A stretch of 64,000 bases of DNA from Candidatus Berkelbacteria bacterium RIFCSPLOWO2_01_FULL_50_28 (GTDB lineage: Bacteria > Patescibacteriota > UBA1384 > 2-12-FULL-50-11): positions 402,108 through 466,107 of the forward strand of contig MEZX01000002.1 in the NCBI GenBank assembly GCA_001774395.1, written 5' to 3'. The position numbers and the translations under genes were made by a program. Below the pieces are notes generated by a model. That model saw only the letters and a program-made list of their open reading frames with translations, was not told the origin of the DNA and ran no database searches. This document shows positions 18,298 through 26,636 of the stretch, piece after piece (within the stretch, counting starts at the first letter, position 1; every line of letters starts with the position of its first letter).

Positions 18298-18369
18298 GCC
18301 GCCTTAGCTCAGTGGTAGAGCAGTTGCTTTGTAAGCATCAGGTCGTCGGTCCGAATCCGACAGGCGGCT
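18298..18369 (+). tRNA. tRNA-Thr (anticodon UGU)
   Basis: Acceptor GCCGCCT/AGGCGGC, D-arm GCTCAGTGGTAGAGC, anticodon loop TTTGTAA, T-arm GTCGG-TCCGAAT-CCGAC. One U-U mismatch in the anticodon stem. Confidence 0.8.
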
Positions 18370-18392
18370 CGGCACATTATTATGGAAGATTT

Positions 18393-18475
18393 GCTGGGGT
18401 ACTCAAGTGGTCAACGAGGGCAGACTGTAAATCTGCTGGCTCCGGCCTTCGTAGGTTCGAATCCTACCCCCAGCA
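18393..18475 (+). tRNA. tRNA-Tyr (anticodon GUA) with long variable arm
   Basis: Acceptor GCTGGGG/CCCCAGC, anticodon loop CTGTAAA, 14-nt variable arm, T-arm GTAGG-TTCGAAT-CCTAC. Confidence 0.8.
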
Positions 18476-18477
18476 CT

Positions 18478-18511
18478 AATTCCAGTTTGGCACTTGTGCC
18501 AATGTGGAATT
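18478..18511. repeat. 34-bp near-perfect palindrome immediately 3' of tRNA-Tyr
   Basis: AATTCCAGTTTGGCACTTGTGCCAATGTGGAATT: 7-bp outer and 5-bp inner arms, no U-tract. Confidence 0.6.
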
Positions 18512-18633
18512 AGTATTGAGGGTCGAACCGCTGCCGCAAGGCAGGAGGTGCGCTAGCGACGAAGCGCAAGCGAAGGAGCTTTCCGGAGCCCGAAGGGCGG
18601 AGGCTTCCTACCCTCAGCACTTCTTGACCACCA

Positions 18634-18663
18634 TTGACTACCAATAGAGCTTCGTACTAATAT
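18634..18663 (+). promoter_or_regulatory. putative promoter of the homing-endonuclease-like gene (TTGACT-18-TAATAT)
   Basis: TTGACT at 18634-18639 and TAATAT at 18658-18663, 18 nt upstream of the ATG. Confidence 0.4.
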
Positions 18664-18680
18664 GTAGTAGGGTAACCAAT

Positions 18681-19340
18681 ATGATCCCAGAAGACTTACT
18701 AAAAGATCTCTACTACTCCAAGCGGAAGTCCTCCTTTGAGATTGGCGAGAGTCTTGGCTGTTCAGTACATAAAGTGAATTACTGGATGGACAAGTTTCAA
18801 CTAGTGCGTCGTTCTCAATCGGAAGCAACTTATGTAAAGAAAAACCCGAACGGGGATCCTTTTGTACTGCGTAAGCCTGGTTCAGTAGATGAGGGCGTCT
18901 TATATGGACTCGGACTAGGACTCTATTGGGGGGAGGGGACAAAAGCGTCAACCTGTGCGATCAGGCTTGGGAACACCGACCCAGAATTGTTAGCGCAGTT
19001 CATTAACTTTTTGTGTCACTTTTATTCCCTGAAAAAGGATACTTTACATTTTAGTCTTCAGCTCTTCCACGACAATAATGTCAACGAATCATTGGATTTT
19101 TGGTGTAAATCACTTAGAATTGATAGGAGGCAATTCTCGAAGCCTGTTTTCTCGCCCTCCCAGTCAAAGGGGACTTATAAACGGAAGGCGCGGTATGGTG
19201 TGGTTACGGTACAATTCAATAACACCAAGCTTCGTAAGATTATTTCTCAACAGCTTGCCAAGATAGCTCAGTTGGTAGAGCACGTCATTGGTAATGACGA
19301 GGTCACGGGTTCGATCCCCGTTCTTGGCTCAGAAAGGTAA
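18681..19340 (+). CDS. LAGLIDADG-like homing endonuclease-like protein with N-terminal HTH; ORF reads through into tRNA-Thr(GGU)
   Basis: The N-terminal SSFEIGESLGCSVHKVNYWMDKF is HTH-like. There is a single LYGLGLGLYWGEGTK motif followed by a DPELLAQFINFL helix. The last 25 codons are the tRNA-Thr sequence itself. Confidence 0.45.
   Translation: MIPEDLLKDLYYSKRKSSFEIGESLGCSVHKVNYWMDKFQLVRRSQSEATYVKKNPNGDPFVLRKPGSVDEGVLYGLGLGLYWGEGTKASTCAIRLGNTDPELLAQFINFLCHFYSLKKDTLHFSLQLFHDNNVNESLDFWCKSLRIDRRQFSKPVFSPSQSKGTYKRKARYGVVTVQFNNTKLRKIISQQLAKIAQLVEHVIGNDEVTGSIPVLGSER
19257..19329 (+). tRNA. tRNA-Thr (anticodon GGU)
   Basis: Acceptor GCCAAGA/TCTTGGC, anticodon loop TTGGTAA, T-arm ACGGG-TTCGATC-CCCGT. 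Confidence 0.8.
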
Positions 19341-19346
19341 AATTAA

Positions 19347-19511
19347 ATGGCAAAAAAATCAGCGCGCGAACAGATCAAAATGGAGTGCACAGTTTGTAAG
19401 ACTTGTAATTACCACTCCGAAAAGAACAAAACCAACACCACCACTCGGGTGGAATTGAAGAAGTTCTGCAAGCTCTGCAAAAAAGTTCAACCGCACAAAG
19501 AAGGAAAGTAA
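19347..19511 (+). CDS. rpmG: 50S ribosomal protein L33 (C4 zinc-binding type), 54 aa - not in the ORF track
   Basis: MAKKSAREQIKMECTVCKTCNYHSEKNKTNTTTRVELKKFCKLCKKVQPHKEGK matches the L33 pattern with two CxxC pairs. Lies directly after the tRNA array as in the canonical thrT-tyrU-...-rpmG neighbourhood. Confidence 0.75.
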   Translation: MAKKSAREQIKMECTVCKTCNYHSEKNKTNTTTRVELKKFCKLCKKVQPHKEGK

Positions 19512-19643
19512 TCATCGCTGAAATCCGGGCAAACCGCAGTAAGAGCCGGTAGTTTGCTTGTATAAAATATTTTTATCTCTATGTTGCTAGTATTAGCAAT
19601 CTTGCTACGTACATTGGCATATCAGCCAGTATAGGAGTTCATT

Positions 19644-21038
19644 TTGAGATTAAAAGCTACACTCGTTTCCATCTGTCCGACTGAGGCGGCTACGCAGGCC
19701 GGTAGGCCTTCGCTTACCCCCGAGCTATTGGCTGCCAGCGGTGCGCGATATTCCCGCAATAACGAAGGCTTGGATGCAATCTTGGCCAAAATCGACTGGA
19801 ACAATCTGGACAAATCCGTGGACGGCATCTTCAGGATGATCGACTACGGACATCAAAGCATTACCGATATGTCGCCAGTGGCGATATTCATCGACGGCGC
19901 GTCGCAATACCTTGTCTATCTGCTCTGGGCCATTTGCCAAGTAGTGGGAGGGCAGGAGTCATCGACTCGGTTTATCCTGATGAATCGAGAGGGTTTGATC
20001 GATCCGCAAACGCTGGGGATTCCCGAAGAGCTTCGTGCCGAATGGTCCGAATACAATGAGCGTGCCTTCAGTGCTTACCATCAAGCCTTGGCTTGTTGGG
20101 AGCACCGACTCGATGAAACCCCGCAGCTTGCTCGCATCCCAACGAGTTTGCTAGAGGCGACTGACGATAAATCGATCGCCGCCGTAGCTCGGATGAAGCG
20201 GAACTACGGTTTCGATCGATCGCGCTACTTCGTGCCGACCGGCATGGGAACCAACGTCATGATGATCATGCCGGCGCGTGAATGGGCTAAGCTCTGTCGG
20301 TATCTCCACTCACATATGCTCTCTGAAGCCCAGCAGCTCGGCGCAATGATCATGGAAGAGCTCAACCTCGTCATCCCGCGCTTGTTGAAACATGCCGTCT
20401 ACGATGACGAAACCGTGGATCAGATCTGGGACGAGTTTGATGAAGATCGGGAGAGTCTCGGTAATCCCAGTGATCTCCTGGAGGTCTACCCGACTCCTTA
20501 TCTCGATATCATGCCTGCTCGAGGTACGACCGAGGAAGATGTCGTCAAGGCGCTCAAACATCACAATAATCGCTACGGTCCATTTGGTCGAGCGATTAGG
20601 AGGATGTCAGTCAGATACGGTGTCGACGCCGTTACCCTTGGAGAAATCCGGGACTTCAACCGGCATCGGACGGGCGAGAAGTTCTGCCCACAGACACCTC
20701 TTGGATTCTATTGTGCTCTCGACCAGTGTCAAGACGACCCGGAGACTCTGAAGATCATCACCGAGCTTCATGAAGTCGGTGTTTCATCTACCAGACAGGC
20801 AGCCAAGCTGCTCAAGGCCGGTGACCCGACCTATGCGTACTGGCTGTTGCTTGGGACGCAGTTCCCTTTCGAACAAACGACCACCGGCAACAAAGCCATC
20901 TACACTTGGGAGCTACGGACCGGTCCGGGCGCGCACTATCGCTACGCCGACCACTTCCGTTGCATCCTCGAACTCTGGTATCAGCAATATCCTCAAACAA
21001 GAGGGCTGATCAAGGAGGGCTTGGCCGAGCCGGAATAA
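19644..21038 (+). CDS. thyX: flavin-dependent thymidylate synthase ThyX-like protein, long tandem-domain form
   Basis: Repeat 1 (AASGARYSRNNEG...IDYGHQSITDMSPVAIFIDGASQYLVYLLWA...ESSTRF) looks ThyX-like but lacks RHR. Repeat 2 carries RHRTGEKF (RHR-x7-S-type motif). TTG start with AGGAG SD 6 nt upstream. Confidence 0.5.
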   Translation: MRLKATLVSICPTEAATQAGRPSLTPELLAASGARYSRNNEGLDAILAKIDWNNLDKSVDGIFRMIDYGHQSITDMSPVAIFIDGASQYLVYLLWAICQVVGGQESSTRFILMNREGLIDPQTLGIPEELRAEWSEYNERAFSAYHQALACWEHRLDETPQLARIPTSLLEATDDKSIAAVARMKRNYGFDRSRYFVPTGMGTNVMMIMPAREWAKLCRYLHSHMLSEAQQLGAMIMEELNLVIPRLLKHAVYDDETVDQIWDEFDEDRESLGNPSDLLEVYPTPYLDIMPARGTTEEDVVKALKHHNNRYGPFGRAIRRMSVRYGVDAVTLGEIRDFNRHRTGEKFCPQTPLGFYCALDQCQDDPETLKIITELHEVGVSSTRQAAKLLKAGDPTYAYWLLLGTQFPFEQTTTGNKAIYTWELRTGPGAHYRYADHFRCILELWYQQYPQTRGLIKEGLAEPE

Positions 21039-21189
21039 GCCACGGCAACTATCGCACCCTTCGTGTCTCCGGACGCGAAGGGTGAATTTAATTAAAAAGC
21101 CCTTCGCAGGACAGGGGCGGTGATTAACCGCAGAAACAGCGCTCAACTTCTTATGGGGCATTTCGTTCCTATTTGCAAGACCAAGTTGA

Positions 21190-21750
21190 ATGACCTACAT
21201 TTGGAGGATGTTTCGTCTCGTCGCCGTTGTTGGTTTAACAGGTTCCGGTAAGTCAGAAGTAGTTAGTGAATTTGAAGGGGCTGGTTTCGCTAAGATTTAT
21301 TTTGGTAGCCTAACTCTGGAGAAACTCAACGAAGAAAAGCTTGAAGTAAACGAAGCTAACGAGCGAATGATGCGCGAAAAATTGCGCGCCGAGCACGGCA
21401 TGAGCGCCTATGCAAAATTGAATATTCCCAAAATCGAGGTCGAAATATCAAAAGGTGATGTGGTTATTGACGGCTTATACTCCTGGGAAGAATACACAGC
21501 TCTGAAAGAAAAGTTTCCTACGATGGAAGTTGTGGCCGTTTACTCTCCACCAGTTCTGCGCTACGAAAGACTTGCCAGCCGTCCCGTTCGTCCGCTCACC
21601 AATGCGGAAGCCCAAAGTCGTGACTCTGCCGAAATCGAAAATCTTCACAAAGCCGGGCCGATCGCGATGGCCGACTACACGATTAGTAACACCAGTACTG
21701 TTGTGGAGTTGAAAAATGCAGTACAACAGATTTTGAATGGCAACAACTAA
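21190..21750 (+). CDS. P-loop nucleotide kinase (dephospho-CoA kinase / dNMP kinase-like)
   Basis: VAVVGLTGSGKSEVVSEFEGAGFAKIY is a CoaE-like Walker A. Small size; context between ThyX and dCMP deaminase. Confidence 0.5.
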   Translation: MTYIWRMFRLVAVVGLTGSGKSEVVSEFEGAGFAKIYFGSLTLEKLNEEKLEVNEANERMMREKLRAEHGMSAYAKLNIPKIEVEISKGDVVIDGLYSWEEYTALKEKFPTMEVVAVYSPPVLRYERLASRPVRPLTNAEAQSRDSAEIENLHKAGPIAMADYTISNTSTVVELKNAVQQILNGNN

Positions 21751-22186
21751 AGACAAAAATAAAAGGGCGAGTTGGGACGAGTATTTCATGGCAATTGCCC
21801 GAGAGGTGGCTACTAGATCAACATGCGATCGTAAAAATGTTGGAGCGGTGCTGGTGCGCGACAAAATGATTCTTACCACCGGGTATAACGGTTCAATTCG
21901 TGGCTTGGCGCACTGCGACGAAGTTGGGCACGAGATCGTTAACGATCACTGCATCCGCACTGTGCACGCTGAAACAAATGCGATCGTTCAGGCCGCCCGC
22001 AACGGAGTTTCAATCGAAGGAGCTACACTCTACATTAACGCCAGCCCGTGCTGGGACTGCTTTAAACTACTGGCCAACGCCGGCATCAAAAAAATTGTCT
22101 TTGGCGAATTTTACCGCGAACAAAGAATTCACGATGTTTCGCTCGAGCTCGGCATCGCCCTGATCGACTTCTCGAAGAAGGTTTAG
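21737..22186 (+). CDS. deoxycytidylate (dCMP) deaminase
   Basis: Cytidine/deoxycytidylate deaminase zinc motifs HAETNAI and PCWDCFK. 149 aa. Confidence 0.8.
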   Translation: MATTKDKNKRASWDEYFMAIAREVATRSTCDRKNVGAVLVRDKMILTTGYNGSIRGLAHCDEVGHEIVNDHCIRTVHAETNAIVQAARNGVSIEGATLYINASPCWDCFKLLANAGIKKIVFGEFYREQRIHDVSLELGIALIDFSKKV

Positions 22187-22201: not shown

Positions 22202-22274
22202 AGGGGTGTAGCTCAGTTGGTAGAGCGCTTGTCTCCAAAACAAGAGGCCGCAGGTTCAATCCCTGTCACCCCTG
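22202..22274 (+). tRNA. tRNA-Trp (anticodon CCA)
   Basis: Acceptor AGGGGTG/CACCCCT, D-arm GCTCAGTTGGTAGAGC, anticodon loop CTCCAAA, T-arm GCAGG-TTCAATC-CCTGT. Confidence 0.8.
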
Positions 22275-22278
22275 CAAA

Positions 22279-22737
22279 ATGTTTCAAGACGAGCCTTTTC
22301 TTGCTTACGCAAATAATTCTTACGGCTTTTGGAACGCGTCTCAGCAATTAGACGAGAACCGTCACGCGTATGGTCATATAGTTAGTTTCTGGAACTTGCT
22401 TTTCAGTCTAGAGTTGAGCCTAAAGGGTCTGATAATGAAAAACACTAAATCATTATTGATTGGGCACGAACTTAAGAACCTCAGGGTAAAGTGTGCAAAT
22501 TACTTCAATTTTACTGAGCGTGAAAAAAAGGCCATCGACTTTTGGGATCCTTATTACTCTGGGTCGGGTGGATTCAAGTATCCTAACCCTAACTATGAGG
22601 CAAACTACTTTCCTCACGATTTTTCTATACTAAGTCGGCTAGTGCAGAGAATATTAGAGGAAGTCTATGGGGATAATGGACATTGGGAGTTTAAACTATC
22701 TAAAGAACTTGTTGGGTTAGAGCACATACCAGAATGA
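22279..22737 (+). CDS. hypothetical protein, possible HEPN-like helical domain
   Basis: SLELSLKGLIMKNTKSLLIGHELKNL resembles the HEPN helix-2/3 region, and an upstream RHAYGH fits Rx4H. Weak call. Confidence 0.25.
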   Translation: MFQDEPFLAYANNSYGFWNASQQLDENRHAYGHIVSFWNLLFSLELSLKGLIMKNTKSLLIGHELKNLRVKCANYFNFTEREKKAIDFWDPYYSGSGGFKYPNPNYEANYFPHDFSILSRLVQRILEEVYGDNGHWEFKLSKELVGLEHIPE

Positions 22738-23315
22738 AGATTTATCTTATACGTCACGGAGAAACTACTGGAGATCTAGAGAACCGTTACGGCGGCGATT
22801 ACGACGATTCACTAACTGAAGAAGGCTTAAAGCAGGCGGAACAACTCGCAGAAGAACTTAAGGACCTAGGTATCGAGGTAATCTACTCGAGTCCATTAAC
22901 GCGAGCTCGACTTACTACAAGCAAACTATGCGACAAACATCGCTGTAAAGTAGTCACGCTTCCTGGGGTGAAGGAACGTAACTTTTACGGCATTCTGACC
23001 GGAATGACGAAGGAAGAAGCGTTTCAAAAACACGCTGATATAGTTCATTTGCTCGAAGACCGGAACAATACATTGCCGGGTGGCGATTCCTACGGGGATT
23101 TTAGCAGCCGAGTCGAAGAGGCCTGGGATCAAATTACAGACCCTACTTACGAAACAGCGGCTGTTGTGACACACGCTGGTCCCATTCGGTGTATTTTCCG
23201 TGACATACTAGGTAAGGGTGAATTAGGAAAAATTGGTGACTGTTCTTATGTTTATCTTTCCGACGAGTCAGGCGACTGGGAGATTATGAGTGCTAAAGGC
23301 GTTCAGCTTCAGTAA
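22734..23315 (+). CDS. histidine phosphatase superfamily protein (phosphoglycerate mutase family)
   Basis: IYLIRHGETTGD catalytic RHG motif. Overlaps the upstream ORF by 4 nt. Confidence 0.7.
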   Translation: MKIYLIRHGETTGDLENRYGGDYDDSLTEEGLKQAEQLAEELKDLGIEVIYSSPLTRARLTTSKLCDKHRCKVVTLPGVKERNFYGILTGMTKEEAFQKHADIVHLLEDRNNTLPGGDSYGDFSSRVEEAWDQITDPTYETAAVVTHAGPIRCIFRDILGKGELGKIGDCSYVYLSDESGDWEIMSAKGVQLQ

Positions 23316-23380
23316 TTCAATGAACGAAGTGAATGAACCCGGGTATAATCAGTACGCAGTGAACACCTAATGGAGTACAA

Positions 23381-24031
23381 ATGAAACTTTTTCTCTCTTC
23401 TCTGGCTGTTCCTAAGTCCCAAACCGTTGAGTTCCTAAGCTTGGTTGGTAAGCCCGCAAGTGAAATACGGCTGGCACTAATTGAAAACGCTGCGGACGTC
23501 TACCCCGAAGAGCGGAAGAGTTTTATAGAGCGAGACCGCTCGATGCTAAAAGAAACCGGCGTACAAATTACCCGGGTCGACTTAAACAAGTTTAACGGCC
23601 CAGAGGAAGTAAGACAGGCGTTACAAGGATTCGATGTAATCTGGCTAGGCGGCGGCAATGCTTATTATCTTCGTTGGGTTTTGAAGAAATCCGGATTCGA
23701 CCAAGTTATTAGGTCGCTACTCGAAAGTGGAACCGTTTACGGCGGGGGCAGTGCGGGGGCAATTGTAGCTGGACCAACTTTGAAGCATTTTGATCTTGCT
23801 GACGAACCAGAGAAAGCGCCGGAACTTATTGAAGGTGGCTTAAGTCTCACGGACAAGGTAATCATCCCTCATTGGGGCCATTCTAGATTTGGCGAACCTA
23901 CCAGGCAAATTAAAGAACTCTTTTCGGACGGTGAATTTCAAACTATTGAGATAACAGACGAGCAGGCTGTGGTTATTAACGCTGACGAAGTCAAAATAAT
24001 CCCAACCAATAATGGAAAGCCTGCGAAATGA
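23381..24031 (+). CDS. peptidase S51 family protein (dipeptidase E-like)
   Basis: VIWLGGGNAYYL and GGGSAGAIVAG (Ser nucleophile in GxSAG). Confidence 0.6.
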   Translation: MKLFLSSLAVPKSQTVEFLSLVGKPASEIRLALIENAADVYPEERKSFIERDRSMLKETGVQITRVDLNKFNGPEEVRQALQGFDVIWLGGGNAYYLRWVLKKSGFDQVIRSLLESGTVYGGGSAGAIVAGPTLKHFDLADEPEKAPELIEGGLSLTDKVIIPHWGHSRFGEPTRQIKELFSDGEFQTIEITDEQAVVINADEVKIIPTNNGKPAK

Positions 24032-24519
24032 ACGAATCTGCGAAGAATTCTTTTCAGACTAGAAAAGCAAAGCCAAGTGATTTAGCTGCCATTAAATCTG
24101 GCCTAATCGATTCTTGGACAGAACATGCCAGACGCGAGCCCACGCTTCTGGACGAAGAACAGATGCGGAACGTTGGTGTCGAGTCATATTATAAAGACGC
24201 CTTCGAAAGCGATAAGACGTTCGTTTTTGTGGCAGAAGTTGACGGGAAATTCGCTGGCGTGCAAAGAGCTGACATTCAAGAAATCCCTCATTTCTATAAA
24301 GACAACAAGATTCTTTACCTAGATGATGCGTACGTCTCACCTGAATTTCGGGGCCAGGGAATTATTGGGGCTCTGATTAAGGAAGTCGAGAAAGTGGCTA
24401 AAGAGCGAGGAATAAAAAGAATTCAAACCCGGGTTTACACTTACAATAAGCCGATGCAGCGAGCCCTCGAAAAGCTGGGCTATCATATGCCGCACTCAAG
24501 TTGGGACAAGCTAGTTTAG
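24028..24519 (+). CDS. GNAT family N-acetyltransferase
   Basis: Acetyl-CoA binding-like VSPEFRGQGIIGALIKEVEKVAKERG. Confidence 0.65.
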   Translation: MNESAKNSFQTRKAKPSDLAAIKSGLIDSWTEHARREPTLLDEEQMRNVGVESYYKDAFESDKTFVFVAEVDGKFAGVQRADIQEIPHFYKDNKILYLDDAYVSPEFRGQGIIGALIKEVEKVAKERGIKRIQTRVYTYNKPMQRALEKLGYHMPHSSWDKLV

Positions 24520-24525
24520 CCACTC

Positions 24526-24954
24526 ATGAAGATCTCCATCGTTCGAAGAAAAACAATAGCTATCGAGGAATTCGAAGGAACTGAATGGCCGATTGCCGAT
24601 GTTGAGCACTACGGTAGGGATGATGTTGAGTTTAAGGCTAAACATTACTTCTTAAAGGCCGAACAAGACGGCACGATCTGGGGGATTTTGCAGATGAAAA
24701 TCCGAGCCGGAGTTTGTACCGTCAGCGATGTTTTGGTCTCGCACGAAAAGCGCGGGCAGGGGATCGGCAAAAAGCTGATGCATGAAGCGGAAAAAATTGC
24801 CACGAAGCAAGGTGCCCACAAAATTTTCCTCATCACCGGCAGAGACTGGAAAGCGGCCGATTTTTACAAATCCCTTGGCTATAAAGTTACCGGCGAAAGG
24901 CAAAACGACCTAGCCCACGCTGACTTTATTGAATTCGCGAAGTTTCTCGGTTAG
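24526..24954 (+). CDS. GNAT family N-acetyltransferase
   Basis: VSHEKRGQGIGKKLMHEAEKIA (Q/RxxGxG/A motif). Confidence 0.7.
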   Translation: MKISIVRRKTIAIEEFEGTEWPIADVEHYGRDDVEFKAKHYFLKAEQDGTIWGILQMKIRAGVCTVSDVLVSHEKRGQGIGKKLMHEAEKIATKQGAHKIFLITGRDWKAADFYKSLGYKVTGERQNDLAHADFIEFAKFLG

Positions 24955-25023
24955 CTACTTTGAGTGATTGGTCCGTATCCCCCTTGAGCTCGGGGGCGAA
25001 TATTTTCGTACGATGCCTGCCAA

Positions 25024-25890
25024 TTATGTCTGAACGAATGTTGGGTTAGATTTCCGGCTTAAAAGCGGGTAGTAGATCTGGTTCAGGAAAATTCCAACAT
25101 AGACGAGATTAATGATTACCAAATCTTGGCCGGTAAAGACAAAAATCAAGTTTACGGCGAAAGCTGAAGTCGTTAGAACTGACAATTGATGCAAGACATA
25201 GCCGTTACGATAGAGAATAACTGCCAGAGCAAAAAGCCAGAGCGGCAAAGTTACCGCCCAAGTGACGTTAAGGACTAAAGTTGTAACCAGAATCGTTACA
25301 AGAATCGCCACCGTGCTGAGAGTTTTTGCGATCGGTATTCCTAACACAACTGGCAAGGTCTGTTTGTTGATTTTGGCGTCATGTTTGACGTCACGGATAT
25401 CACCGACCAAGCTGCGGGCAAAAATTAATGACACAATTGCCCCAGCCAGCCACCAAATCTCGCCCGTTAGCGGGGCGTTATAAAACGCAATTGCAAAGAG
25501 TAGGTAAGAGGCCTGAATCAAGCCGCGAACAAGGTTATTTATCTGCCCAAAGAATCGAACCCGTTCTTTCAATAGATAAGCGACGACGAAAACCGTTGAG
25601 ATCACAACCCAAACTAAAGTGGTGTTGTTTCCTACGTAGCCAAGTACTACGGCGGTCAGTAAAGCGATTATAGCTGGAAAGACCGACATCGTTCCTCGTT
25701 CTTGATAGCCTTTCACGAGCTCCAGGAGGATATTATAGAAAGCCCAGAGTAGCAGGATAGCGGCGGCCAGATAGAAATCTTTTGTCTCGAAACCGAGCTG
25801 GTTGTTCACCCAGAACTTAGCTAGCCAACCCAGTAGAATAAAATCTACCCAAGAGTACGGTCGCAGGTTAAGTAGATAGTGTTTAAACAT
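25024..25890 (-). CDS. UbiA-family prenyltransferase-like polytopic membrane protein
   Basis: 8-9 TM helices; Asp-rich GDIRDVKHDAKINKQTLPV (DxxDxxxD) motif. Confidence 0.55.
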   Translation of the reverse strand: MFKHYLLNLRPYSWVDFILLGWLAKFWVNNQLGFETKDFYLAAAILLLWAFYNILLELVKGYQERGTMSVFPAIIALLTAVVLGYVGNNTTLVWVVISTVFVVAYLLKERVRFFGQINNLVRGLIQASYLLFAIAFYNAPLTGEIWWLAGAIVSLIFARSLVGDIRDVKHDAKINKQTLPVVLGIPIAKTLSTVAILVTILVTTLVLNVTWAVTLPLWLFALAVILYRNGYVLHQLSVLTTSAFAVNLIFVFTGQDLVIINLVYVGIFLNQIYYPLLSRKSNPTFVQT

Positions 25891-26383
25891 AGTGTTCTCG
25901 GTAAACTTCGTGGATCTGTTGATTTATCTCATCTAGATTATTAATAAAAACAACTTTCTTATCACGAAGAATCTCGTCGCTCTTGAGGGTCTTATAGCTT
26001 TGCGAATTGTTGGTGACAATGCGGGTCAGATTGCTCTTAATCATCCAGTCTCTCAACCAGTGGAGTTGGTCGTTCACAAAATAGACAAGTGGCTTGTTTT
26101 TGCCAGCGAACCAGCCGGTTTCAAATGAGCAGTCATTACCAAATTCCGGCAGAGCAAAACCGATATGAGCTTCTTGCATCGCATTTATATCAGTATTAAC
26201 CACGGGCTGAGGAATTTTCGGGTGCTCGAGATTATAGGGATTATGGTGATGAGGAATAAATATCTCAATAGGAGCTTTAAAGTGTGAGCACACTTCTTCA
26301 TTCCAGTCGTGCGCATCCTTGGAGATTCGAGCAATCAGGTAGAGTTTTGCTGTCTTTGGTTTCTTGGTGCCGAATAAACCCAT
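25883..26383 (-). CDS. nucleoside 2-deoxyribosyltransferase-like protein
   Basis: KLYLIARISKD...FIPHHHNPY...ALPEFGNDCSFETGWFAGKNKPLVYFVND pattern. Overlaps the UbiA-like gene by 8 nt (operon). Confidence 0.4.
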   Translation of the reverse strand: MGLFGTKKPKTAKLYLIARISKDAHDWNEEVCSHFKAPIEIFIPHHHNPYNLEHPKIPQPVVNTDINAMQEAHIGFALPEFGNDCSFETGWFAGKNKPLVYFVNDQLHWLRDWMIKSNLTRIVTNNSQSYKTLKSDEILRDKKVVFINNLDEINQQIHEVYREHYV

Positions 26384-26636
26384 ATGGCAACTATAGTGTT
26401 TTTTGGAGTTATTGTTAAGGTACGAGCCATCTTAAATAGTTGAGCCCCAGTAACTTGGTAATTGCTTCAAAATGGTTCGGATCTACCCCGTATTCTAGTG
26501 AGAGGCTGTGGATTGTGTCGTGCAAGGGATACAACGTAAGAAACGGCTCGCCCGCATGAATTTCACCCGTTTTAGGGCTGTTGACGTCTGCATAATTGCC
26601 ACGTATTGTAGATATAACAGAGTAAAAGGAGGGGAT

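What the first reader, a model, noticed from the sequence alone, without database searches (positions are those of the whole stretch)
19644..22186. dTMP-synthesis module (tandem ThyX-like + P-loop kinase + dCMP deaminase) wedged between the tRNA array/rpmG and tRNA-Trp
- **Genes.** Three co-directional genes sit exactly where tufB is expected between rpmG/tRNA-Thr and tRNA-Trp:
  - a 464-aa ThyX-like protein that looks like two fused ThyX-type repeats; the first lacks the RHR flavin/dUMP motif (ESSTRF), the second retains RHRTGEKF;
  - a CoaE-like P-loop kinase;
  - a zinc dCMP deaminase.
- **Function.** Together they form a dCMP -> dUMP -> dTMP (-> dTDP?) route.
- **Why it stands out.** Such compact thymidylate modules bounded by tRNA genes are typical of phage- or MGE-derived auxiliary metabolic cassettes. 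The pseudo-dimeric ThyX with one degenerate active-site half is itself unusual.
Basis: partly seen in the sequence, partly recalled or inferred. Interest (0 to 1): 0.55.

Follow-up and report, generated by a model that had tools for sequence, protein, structure and literature searches.

The report
Thymidylate-synthesis genes with a double-domain ThyX
This is an ordinary chromosomal gene cluster for making the DNA base thymine in a tiny-genome (Berkelbacteria) bacterium, whose one unusual part is a double-length ThyX enzyme sitting where its closest sampled relative carries a normal ThyX gene.

Summary
The three genes are real and read as described: a 464-aa ThyX-like protein, a P-loop kinase and a zinc dCMP deaminase, between rpmG and tRNA-Trp. 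The window is from a Candidatus Berkelbacteria (CPR) chromosome.

Both halves of the long protein are ThyX folds. The N-half matches Pfam Thy1. The C-half matches only by predicted structure. The canonical ThyX residues are split between the halves.

This architecture is not unique. It is a large family of 415-520 aa proteins in Armatimonadota, Verrucomicrobiota and relatives, in another contig with the same kinase-deaminase pair, and in Microcystis phages.

The phage/mobile-element reading is not supported. rpmG-kinase-deaminase-tRNA-Trp is conserved in related Berkelbacteria-type contigs. Only the slot between rpmG and the kinase varies:
- empty in two relatives;
- tmk in one;
- a canonical 276-aa thyX on the opposite strand in the closest relative;
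- the tandem thyX here.

The kinase-deaminase pair also recurs next to thyA, tmk, SHMT or ribonucleotide reductase in other lineages.

Verdict: a housekeeping dCMP -> dUMP -> dTMP cluster with a gene-for-gene difference at the thymidylate synthase slot (direction not established). The kinase's substrate is unknown. It is not CoaE, and the pair is not a DcdV-type defence enzyme. Interest is modest.

The parts
18298..18476 (+). tRNA-Thr(TGT) 18298-18370 and tRNA-Tyr(GTA) 18393-18476. These form the conserved start of the tRNA array.
   Evidence: ARAGORN and Rfam. L081, L095, L096 and L097 have the same array.
19257..19330 (+). tRNA-Thr(GGT)
   Evidence: Conserved in relatives.
19347..19511 (+). 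rpmG (ribosomal protein L33). This is the left anchor of the variable slot.
   Evidence: Pfam Ribosomal_L33 E 4e-14. The stretch is 92% identical in DNA to L094 up to the stop codon, and homology then ends.
19512..21133 (+). Lineage-specific 1,622-nt segment carrying the tandem thyX. At the same place the closest relative has an unrelated 927-nt segment (L094 180-1106) with a canonical thyX on the opposite strand.
   Evidence: blastn and pairwise alignments of window against L094. Gene content of L094.
19644..21038 (+). Tandem-domain ThyX (464 aa, TTG start).
   Evidence: ORF. The full-length family alignment has conserved ends. AF2 model pLDDT 87, pTM 0.88. Foldseek matches ThyX structures and, over the full length, the 491-aa Microcystis phage thymidylate synthase.
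19719..20378 (+). N-terminal ThyX domain (residues 26-245). It keeps the His (H70), the E-x-S-x-R-Y/F loop (E105, S107, R109, F110) and the Arg-147 equivalent (R194). It has lost RHR (I97-C98-Q99) and the Arg-174 equivalent (L221).
   Evidence: Pfam Thy1 E 1.4e-9, above cut-off. Residue alignment to M. tuberculosis ThyX. Invariant columns.
20457..21035 (+). C-terminal ThyX domain (residues 272-464). It keeps R340-H341-R342 and the R425/H431 pair (R174/H178 equivalents). It has lost the Ser/Arg loop (K346-F-C-P).
   Evidence: There is no sequence signal. A separate AF2 model has pLDDT 85.6, and its top 50 Foldseek PDB hits are all ThyX (E 5e-8, TMq 0.67). A collinear but non-significant hhalign to canonical ThyX places RHR on RHR.
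21055..21084 (+). 13-bp GC-rich hairpin just after the thyX stop, inside the lineage-specific segment. It is a possible terminator.
   Evidence: I8. The tail is AT-rich rather than a clean T-run, so function is inferred only.
21134..21207 (+). Conserved leader of the kinase-deaminase operon. Homology with the closest relative resumes here.
   Evidence: It is near-identical to L094 over about 75 nt upstream of the kinase start.
21208..21750 (+). P-loop kinase of the UPF0200 / AdkA-like type (Walker A GLTGSGKS). The ORF can be read from 21190, but 21208 is the likely start.
   Evidence: Pfam AAA_18 and AAA_17. PDB 3lw7 and 3h0k E 1.6e-11 over the full length. 3,603 homologues. A dCMP deaminase gene lies next to and downstream of it in every context read.
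21737..22186 (+). Zinc dCMP deaminase (HAE ... PCWDC; GYNG).
   Evidence: PF00383 E 9e-28. TIGR02571 147 bits. S. mutans dCD 2hvv E 7e-39 and T4 dCD.
22202..22275 (+). tRNA-Trp(CCA). This is the right anchor of the conserved block.
   Evidence: It follows the deaminase in L081, L082, L094, L096 and L097. In L095 one extra 222-aa ORF lies in between.

Best explanation
This is a housekeeping thymidylate-synthesis cluster on a Candidatus Berkelbacteria chromosome.

**The conserved core.** The core is a two-gene operon, a P-loop kinase and a dCMP deaminase whose reading frames overlap. It is inherited in place between rpmG and tRNA-Trp.

**The pathway.** The deaminase converts dCMP to dUMP. The gene just upstream converts dUMP to dTMP, using FAD, NAD(P)H and methylene-tetrahydrofolate.

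**The ThyX gene.** In this genome that gene is a tandem-domain ThyX, that is, two ThyX folds in one chain. Each canonical active-site element survives in only one of the halves:
- N-half: the His, the Glu/Ser/Arg loop and the Arg-147 equivalent.
- C-half: RHR and the Arg-174/His-178 equivalents.

Canonical ThyX is a homotetramer whose sites are built at subunit interfaces. I therefore infer that the tandem protein forms a dimer that mimics the tetramer, with about two complete sites.

**The variable slot.** The tandem gene occupies the slot where the closest sampled relative has a canonical thyX. The two genomes differ by a gene-for-gene swap of the thymidylate synthase; which state is ancestral was not established.

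**The kinase.** I infer that it works on (deoxy)cytidine nucleotides to supply or sense the deaminase's substrate. Its substrate is not shown.

**Shown versus inferred.** Shown: gene identities, folds, motif partition, synteny and the swap. Inferred: enzyme activity, oligomer, number of sites and the kinase's role.
For: **Organism and chromosomal setting.**
- The kinase is 100% identical to a protein of Candidatus Berkelbacteria RIFCSPLOWO2_01_FULL_50_28.
- The window carries murC, recJ, radA, a PBP, argS, topA, cysS and pilB.

**Synteny.**
- L081 (complete genome CP066697) and L096 have holB-TPR-tRNA Thr/Tyr/Thr-rpmG-kinase-dcd-tRNA-Trp followed, directly or after one gene, by pil genes, with no thyX. 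L095 shows the same order, with no rpmG gene called and one extra ORF before tRNA-Trp.
- L097 has tmk in the slot.
- L094 is the closest relative (kinase 84% identical, rpmG 52 of 54 residues). It has a canonical 276-aa thyX with RHRTARLNEVSGRY in the slot, on the opposite strand.
- DNA homology between window and L094 stops at the rpmG stop codon and resumes at 21134.

**Functional linkage of the kinase-dcd pair elsewhere.**
- With tandem thyX, tmk, a DCD-family gene and dUTPase (L084/85).
- With thyA, tmk and SHMT (L086/87).
- With canonical thyX and SHMT (L098-100).
- With NrdR and an RNR (L105).
- As a fused kinase-deaminase protein (P0196).

**Tandem ThyX.**
- Pfam Thy1 on the N-half.
- ThyX fold for the C-half alone.
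- Motif partition seen in invariant columns.
- Family of more than 1,217 proteins at about 50-55% identity, and 199 50%-identity clusters at E<=1e-30.

**No other candidate in the window.** No canonical thyX, thyA, tmk or SHMT lies elsewhere in the 64 kb.
Against: - No enzyme activity is shown for any tandem ThyX that I could find.
- The protein scores far below the TIGR02170 equivalog cut-off (16.3 against 87.9).
- The contiguous RHRx7S motif that defines ThyX is not present in either domain.
- The two halves show no detectable sequence similarity to each other (hhalign E 0.57). C-half homology rests on a predicted structure.
- Only 64 kb of the genome was visible, so a second thymidylate synthase elsewhere cannot be excluded.
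- The kinase's role is a guess. Its nearest solved relatives have no known function.
- The direction of the thyX swap was not tested.
Confidence: 0.75

Rival explanations
1. One reading: the three genes together are a phage- or MGE-derived auxiliary thymidylate cassette that integrated next to tRNA genes.
For: - The thyX segment (19512-21133) is lineage-specific and differs cleanly from the closest relative.
- Its GC3 (0.63) is above that of the kinase (0.48) and most neighbours.
- Tandem ThyX proteins exist in Microcystis phages and on six IMG/VR contigs.
- A homing-endonuclease-like ORF and a variable block after tRNA-Trp lie nearby.
Against: - The kinase, the deaminase, rpmG and all flanking tRNAs are syntenic in related chromosomes.
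- No integrase, transposase or convincing flanking repeat was found. The one 15-nt pair is at chance level.
- Viral homologues are 22-47% identical against 55% for cellular ones.
- In a neighbour-joining tree without support values, the window protein pairs with the tandem ThyX of another kinase-dcd contig, not with viral sequences.
- A GC3 of 0.63 is within the window's range; the radical-SAM gene has 0.67.
Confidence: 0.07
2. The kinase and deaminase are a split version of the anti-phage dCTP deaminase (DcdV type: P-loop kinase plus deaminase) that depletes dCTP on infection. On this view thyX is merely adjacent.
For: - Both proteins hit the PADLOC dCTPase model in the same order as its domains. 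The kinase matches model positions 155-330 (E 5.5e-12) and the deaminase matches from position 437 (E 3.6e-30).
- There are weak hits to NCBIfam antiphage_deaminase.
- DcdV is described as a PLK plus DCD protein (bioRxiv 10.1101/2021.03.31.437871).
Against: - Scores are far below the NCBIfam cut-off (15 and 81.7 bits against 400).
- The deaminase is much closer to housekeeping dCMP deaminases (2hvv E 7e-39; ComEB 147 bits).
- The pair holds a fixed chromosomal position beside ribosomal and tRNA genes across related genomes.
- It travels with thyX, thyA, tmk, SHMT or RNR, not with defence genes.
Confidence: 0.05
3. The tandem ThyX is not a dTMP synthase. On this view it is a diverged flavin-dependent pyrimidine-modifying enzyme with a different substrate or product, or a catalytically dead scaffold.
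For: - The defining motif is split and each domain is degenerate.
- TIGR02170 gives 16.3 bits against 87.9.
- In 80 loci from other phyla it is not next to the kinase and is rarely near a deaminase.
- No biochemical study was found in the searchable library.
Against: - It sits exactly where the closest relative has a canonical thyX.
- In L084 it lies beside tmk, kinase-dcd, a DCD-family gene and dUTPase.
- Every canonical catalytic element is kept once per chain and is invariant across the family. That pattern fits conserved catalysis rather than decay.
- No other thymidylate synthase is in the window.
Confidence: 0.12

Closest known systems
Canonical flavin-dependent thymidylate synthase ThyX (Pfam Thy1 PF02511; T. 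maritima TM0449, M. tuberculosis ThyX)
   Same: - Both halves have the same fold.
- The same catalytic residues are present once per chain.
- The gene occupies the genomic slot where the closest relative has a canonical thyX.
   Different: - It is two domains in one 464-aa chain rather than about 220-280 aa.
- The RHRx7S motif is split between the domains.
- It is below the TIGR02170 cut-off.
- About two rather than four active sites per assembly are inferred.
Long 'thymidylate synthase' of Microcystis phages (Ma-LMM01 gp020, 491 aa; PHROG 36506)
   Same: - The two-domain length is similar.
- The full-length structural match has TMq 0.57, E 2.6e-12.
- There is sequence similarity over 73-93% of the query.
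   Different: - Identity is only 22-28%.
- It is viral rather than chromosomal.
- No kinase or dCMP deaminase is annotated among its neighbouring genes, many of which are unnamed.
DcdV / anti-phage dCTP deaminase (P-loop kinase fused to a dCMP-deaminase-like domain)
   Same: The kinase is followed by the deaminase, collinear with the fused protein (paper read).
   Different: - Here there are two separate small genes.
- Scores are far below family cut-offs.
- The context is housekeeping, linked to thymidylate genes, not a defence island.
UPF0200 / AdkA-like protein SSO1041 (PDB 3h0k, 3lw7)
   Same: Full-length sequence match to the kinase, E 1.6e-11.
   Different: It is an archaeal protein of unknown function. 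No link to a deaminase was examined there.
Housekeeping dCMP deaminase (ComEB type; S. mutans 2hvv, T4 cd)
   Same: - HAE/PCxxC zinc site and GYNG segment.
- E 7e-39.
   Different: - It is below the ComEB equivalog cut-off (147 bits against 219).
- It is always paired with the small kinase in the lineages read.

Membership tests
ThyX / FDTS (PF02511, TIGR02170) | Thy1 domain detectable by the Pfam model above its gathering score | tested here: met
   38.5 bits against 24.8, on residues 26-245 only. The C-half alone has no Pfam hit in 17 members.
ThyX / FDTS (PF02511, TIGR02170) | ThyX fold | tested here: met
   The full-length and C-half AF2 models match T. maritima, PBCV-1 and M. tuberculosis ThyX structures.
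ThyX / FDTS (PF02511, TIGR02170) | Contiguous ThyX motif RHRxxxxxxxS within one domain | tested here: not met
   The N-half has I-C-Q ... ESSTRF. The C-half has RHRTGEKFCP with no Ser/Arg loop.
ThyX / FDTS (PF02511, TIGR02170) | Equivalog-level score (TIGR02170) | tested here: not met
   16.3 bits against a cut-off of 87.9.
ThyX / FDTS (PF02511, TIGR02170) | FAD-dependent conversion of dUMP to dTMP; homotetramer with interface active sites | not testable with these tools
   The only support is context: it occupies a canonical thyX slot and is linked to tmk, dcd and dUTPase in L084.
dCMP deaminase (PF00383; ComEB type) | Zinc-binding HAE and PCxxC motifs, and similarity to solved dCMP deaminases | tested here: met
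   VHAE and PCWDC are in the sequence. PF00383 E 9e-28. 2hvv E 7e-39. TIGR02571 gives 147 bits, below its 219 cut-off.
Dephospho-CoA kinase CoaE | Match to TIGR00152 / PF01121 at the family threshold | tested here: not met
   TIGR00152 gives 17.3 bits against 65.55. There is no PF01121 hit for the window protein.
Thymidylate kinase (Tmk) | PF02223 domain; sole dTMP kinase of the cluster | tested here: not met
   There is no PF02223 hit. Relatives carry a separate tmk next to the same kinase.
Anti-phage dCTP deaminase / DcdV | Single polypeptide with kinase and deaminase domains, scoring at the family threshold | tested here: not met
   There are two genes. NF041025 gives 15 and 81.7 bits against 400. 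The PADLOC model is hit collinearly but weakly.
Anti-phage dCTP deaminase / DcdV | Defence-island or variable genomic context | tested here: not met
   The position beside rpmG and tRNA-Trp is fixed in related genomes.
Phage/MGE-borne auxiliary metabolic cassette | Block absent from related chromosomes, with integration hallmarks (integrase, att repeats) or closest relatives in phages | tested here: not met
   Kinase-dcd is conserved in place. No integrase was found. The flanking repeat is at chance level. Phage homologues are more distant than cellular ones. Only the thyX segment itself is variable.
UPF0200 / AdkA-like P-loop kinases | Full-length sequence similarity and a Walker A motif | tested here: met
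   3lw7 and 3h0k E 1.6e-11, over residues 9-181. GLTGSGKS is present.

The most novel reading that the evidence does not exclude
The tandem ThyX may represent an undescribed architectural class of flavin-dependent thymidylate synthase. It would be a single-chain pseudo-heterodimer in which the two ancient halves have divided the catalytic residues between them. A dimer would then rebuild only about two composite active sites.

The swap with a canonical thyX between sister genomes would be natural evidence that the two forms are interchangeable.

A second thread concerns the small kinase. It may be an obligate partner of dCMP deaminase across CPR, DPANN and Chloroflexi, and the housekeeping ancestor of the kinase-deaminase anti-phage enzymes.
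Probability: 0.4. Interest if true: 0.5.

Novelty: new member of a known kind. Interest (0 to 1): 0.3.

Why it matters
For genome annotation, this locus should be read as core nucleotide metabolism of a CPR bacterium, not as a mobile cassette.

Two points have wider use.
- **A natural experiment on ThyX.** A canonical and a tandem ThyX occupy the same slot in sister genomes. This argues that the large, uncharacterised tandem family really makes dTMP. It also offers a single-chain system for studying how ThyX interface active sites are assembled, which is relevant because ThyX is an antibacterial target.
- **An unassigned kinase.** A very common small kinase of unknown function is almost invariably paired with dCMP deaminase. 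That gives a concrete, testable hypothesis for its role and for the origin of kinase-deaminase defence enzymes.

Tried and rejected
- **Sequence evidence that the C-half is a Thy1 repeat.** hhalign of N-half against C-half gave E 0.57. A profile search of PDB and Pfam on 17 C-halves found nothing. hhalign to a canonical ThyX profile was collinear but not significant. Only the structure-based test worked.
- **Exact-sequence look-up of the window's ThyX contig.** Not on record.
- **Close relatives of the window ThyX in JGI metagenome contigs.** None found.
- **Conservation of the three-gene module in other phyla.** In 80 genome loci with tandem ThyX the kinase is never within 6 kb, and a deaminase is nearby in only 3. 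The module is therefore specific to the CPR-type lineages.
- **Literature on tandem, fused or duplicated ThyX.** Four searches found nothing relevant. PMC409905 is not held. From memory, Chlamydia ThyX is also about twice the normal length and is active. I could not check this, because the AFDB library was unavailable.
- **UPF0200/SSO1041 literature.** Nothing on function.
- **Rfam on the intergenic regions.** Only tRNAs were found.
- **The 15-nt direct repeat flanking the thyX segment.** About two such pairs are expected by chance in 2 kb (my estimate, on the repeats listed), so I rejected it as an integration scar.
- **The composition argument for horizontal transfer.** thyX GC3 of 0.63 is high but within the window's range, so this is inconclusive.
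Full report
**What is there**

- tRNA-Thr(TGT) 18298-18370
- tRNA-Tyr 18393-18476
- tRNA-Thr(GGT) 19257-19330
- rpmG 19347-19511
- a 464-aa ORF 19644-21038 (TTG start)
- a P-loop kinase 21190/21208-21750
- a deaminase 21737-22186, overlapping the kinase by 14 nt
- tRNA-Trp 22202-22275

Pfam gives Thy1 for the long protein, AAA_18/AAA_17 for the kinase and dCMP_cyt_deam_1 for the deaminase.

The window is a bacterial chromosome carrying murC, recJ, radA, a class A PBP, argS, topA, cysS and pilB. The kinase is 100% identical to a protein of Candidatus Berkelbacteria bacterium RIFCSPLOWO2_01_FULL_50_28. The organism is therefore a CPR bacterium.

**The long ThyX is two ThyX folds**

Pfam Thy1 covers only residues 26-245 (38.5 bits; cut-off 24.8).

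The C-terminal part gives no sequence signal:
- hhalign of the two halves gave E 0.57.
- A profile of 17 C-halves against PDB found nothing relevant.
- Pfam on 17 C-halves found nothing relevant.

Structure prediction settles the question:
- The full-length model is confident (pLDDT 87, pTM 0.88) and matches ThyX structures.
- A separate model of residues 272-464 (pLDDT 85.6) has ThyX structures as all of its top 50 Foldseek PDB hits (best E 5e-8, TMq 0.67).
- The order of secondary-structure elements is the same in both halves.

**The catalytic residues are partitioned**

The evidence is the 32-sequence family alignment, the HMMER alignment of the N-half to M. tuberculosis ThyX and a collinear, non-significant hhalign of the C-half to canonical ThyX.

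| Element (T. maritima numbering, from my own knowledge of the enzyme) | N-half | C-half |
|---|---|---|
| His 53 | kept (H70) | not assigned |
| RHR (78-80) | lost (I97-C98-Q99) | kept (R340-H341-R342) |
| Glu/Ser/Arg/Tyr loop (86-91) | kept (E105, S107, R109, F110) | lost (K346-F-C-P) |
| Arg 147 | kept (R194) | not assigned |
| Arg 174 / His 178 | Arg lost (L221) | kept (R425, H431) |

All the retained residues are invariant in the family.

Canonical ThyX is a homotetramer whose active sites lie between subunits. This is established knowledge; the paper title cited places the site at the interface of three monomers. I therefore infer that the tandem protein dimerises into a pseudo-tetramer with about two complete sites. 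The oligomer and the number of sites were not tested.

**The architecture is a large family, not a peculiarity of this locus**

- A word-indexed search found 1,217 homologues among 8,000 scored candidates. The best 120 are 456-571 aa (nearly all 456-495), 47-55% identical over the full length, and several are named 'FAD-dependent thymidylate synthase' by NCBI or JGI.
- An exhaustive profile search of 1.84 billion cluster representatives found 199 clusters at E<=1e-30 and 915 at E<=1e-10. Full-length matches were 415-520 aa.
- In species-representative genomes it occurs in Armatimonadota, Verrucomicrobiota, Kiritimatiellia, Lentisphaerota, Chlorobiota-like MAGs and Desulfuromonadales MAGs.
- Long homologues also occur in Microcystis phages: Ma-LMM01 gp020 'thymidylate synthase' (491 aa) and a 472-aa protein of Mvi-JY20, at 22-28% identity. 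These match the full-length model structurally (TMq 0.57-0.61).
- I found no paper describing the tandem form.

**Synteny decides the origin question**

I fetched contexts of kinase homologues.

| Locus | Relation to window | Content of the rpmG-kinase slot |
|---|---|---|
| L081 (complete Berkelbacteria genome CP066697) | kinase 63% identical | empty |
| L096 (804-kb contig) and L095 | kinase 60% identical | empty (rpmG not called in L095) |
| L097 | kinase 64% identical | tmk on the minus strand |
| L094 | closest relative: kinase 84% identical, L33 52 of 54 residues | canonical 276-aa thyX (RHRTARLNEVSGRY) on the minus strand |
| Window | - | tandem thyX on the plus strand |

L081 and L096 share the order holB, TPR protein, tRNA-Thr, tRNA-Tyr, tRNA-Thr, rpmG, kinase, deaminase, tRNA-Trp, then the pilus genes. 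L097 has the same order with one extra ORF inside the tRNA array. L095 has it too, with one extra ORF before tRNA-Trp.

At the DNA level, window and L094 are 92% identical through rpmG up to its stop codon. They are unrelated for 1,622 nt (window) against 927 nt (L094). They are again 83% identical from window 21134 through the kinase leader, kinase and deaminase.

The kinase-deaminase operon and its tRNA/rpmG frame are therefore inherited in place. The slot in front of it is variable and always holds a thymidylate gene or nothing. In this genome a tandem thyX stands where the closest relative has a canonical one. Which state came first was not tested.

Other close relatives of that canonical ThyX (79-80% identity) also sit beside the kinase-deaminase pair, with SHMT next door.

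**Functional linkage beyond this clade**

- On an unclassified soil contig, the kinase-deaminase pair lies next to a tandem thyX, tmk, a DCD-family gene, dUTPase and fpg (L084/85).
- Elsewhere the pair lies next to thyA, tmk and SHMT (L086/87).
- In a Woesearchaeota MAG it follows NrdR and a ribonucleotide reductase (L105).
- In a Chloroflexi-labelled contig the pair is also intact.
- A fused 324-aa kinase-deaminase protein exists (P0196).

In 80 loci from other phyla, by contrast, tandem thyX stands alone. Within the 64-kb window there is no other thyX, thyA, tmk, SHMT, dCTP deaminase or dUTPase.

**What the kinase is and is not**

- It is not CoaE. TIGR00152 gives 17.3 bits against 65.55, and there is no PF01121 hit.
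- It is not the cluster's dTMP kinase, since relatives have tmk as well.
- Its nearest solved relatives are the Sulfolobus UPF0200/AdkA-like protein (3h0k, 3lw7; E 1.6e-11), which has no known function.
- Kinase and deaminase hit the PADLOC dCTP-deaminase model in domain order, and weakly hit NCBIfam's anti-phage deaminase (15 and 81.7 bits against 400). The pair is thus homologous in layout to DcdV-type defence enzymes.
- Its fixed housekeeping position, its metabolic neighbours and the deaminase's much stronger match to ordinary dCMP deaminases (2hvv E 7e-39) argue that it is the metabolic version.
- My best guess is a (deoxy)cytidine-nucleotide kinase or nucleotide-sensing partner that supplies or tunes dCMP for the deaminase. 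This is inference only.

**Phage or mobile-element origin**

Not supported for the block:
- There is no integrase or transposase around it.
- The one flanking 15-nt repeat is at chance level.
- Viral homologues are more distant than cellular ones.
- In a neighbour-joining tree without support values, the window protein pairs with the tandem ThyX of the other kinase-deaminase contig (L084) rather than with viral sequences.

The thyX segment alone may well have been acquired or exchanged. It is lineage-specific, carries its own hairpin (21055-21084) and has a somewhat higher GC3 (0.63 against about 0.48-0.58). The donor and the direction of exchange are unresolved.

**Verdict**

- The metabolic reading and the tandem-ThyX reading are supported.
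- The mobile-cassette reading and the CoaE/dTDP suggestion are not supported.
- The locus is a new member of known kinds.
- Two modestly interesting leads remain: the residue-partitioned tandem ThyX that swaps with canonical thyX between sister genomes, and the uncharacterised kinase that partners dCMP deaminase.

Noticed in passing
window 18681-19340 (+): A 219-aa ORF lies between tRNA-Tyr and tRNA-Thr(GGT). Its N-terminus hits PHROG 'HNH endonuclease' families (E about 1e-6), and it has a LAGLIDADG-like 'LGLGLYWGEGTK' segment. Its reading frame runs straight through the tRNA-Thr gene to a stop at 19340. It is absent from relatives, which have 130-nt (L081) or 14-nt (L095, L096) spacers there. 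L097 has a PDDEXK_5 ORF elsewhere in the same array. It looks like a free-standing homing endonuclease in the tRNA array.
   Followed up: partly
window 18477-18680 (+), core 18513-18620: A strong hairpin follows tRNA-Tyr directly, and then comes a GC-rich multi-stem element. The fold energy z-score is -3.3, and none of 200 shuffles folded as well. Sixty-four nt of it (18546-18609) are 77% identical to a stretch just downstream of tRNA-Trp in L081-L083. There is no Rfam match. This may be a small repeated structured element or an ncRNA.
   Followed up: partly
window 22279-26400: About 4 kb directly after tRNA-Trp holds ORF152 (no hits), a histidine phosphatase, an S51 peptidase, two GNAT acetyltransferases, a UbiA prenyltransferase and a sub-threshold nucleoside 2-deoxyribosyltransferase-like ORF. 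Relatives L081 and L097 lack this block. There, a small ORF, pilO and pilB follow tRNA-Trp. It is a variable region next to the tRNA, with no integrase seen.
   Followed up: partly
window 19532-19546 and 21126-21140: An imperfect 15-nt direct repeat (AACCGCAGTAAGAGC / AACCGCAGAAACAGC) lies near both ends of the lineage-specific thyX segment. About two such pairs are expected by chance in 2 kb, so it is probably meaningless.
   Followed up: yes
window 21134-21210: About 75 nt upstream of the kinase are almost identical to the closest relative L094, which suggests a conserved promoter or leader for the kinase-deaminase operon. The ATG at 21190 is out of frame in L094, so the kinase probably starts at 21208.
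   Followed up: partly
L086 3192-4718 (-) and 2518-3192 (-): In another kinase-deaminase context the thymidylate synthase is a 508-aa ThyA fused to a pterin-binding DUF4346 domain. It lies next to a small NAD_binding_1 (FNR-like) protein. This unusual ThyA architecture may recycle its own folate.
   Followed up: no
L088-L093 (IMG/VR contigs of 63-441 kb): Tandem ThyX genes (36-47% identity) lie on six large contigs classed as viral. I did not check whether these are huge phages or misbinned cellular DNA.
   Followed up: no
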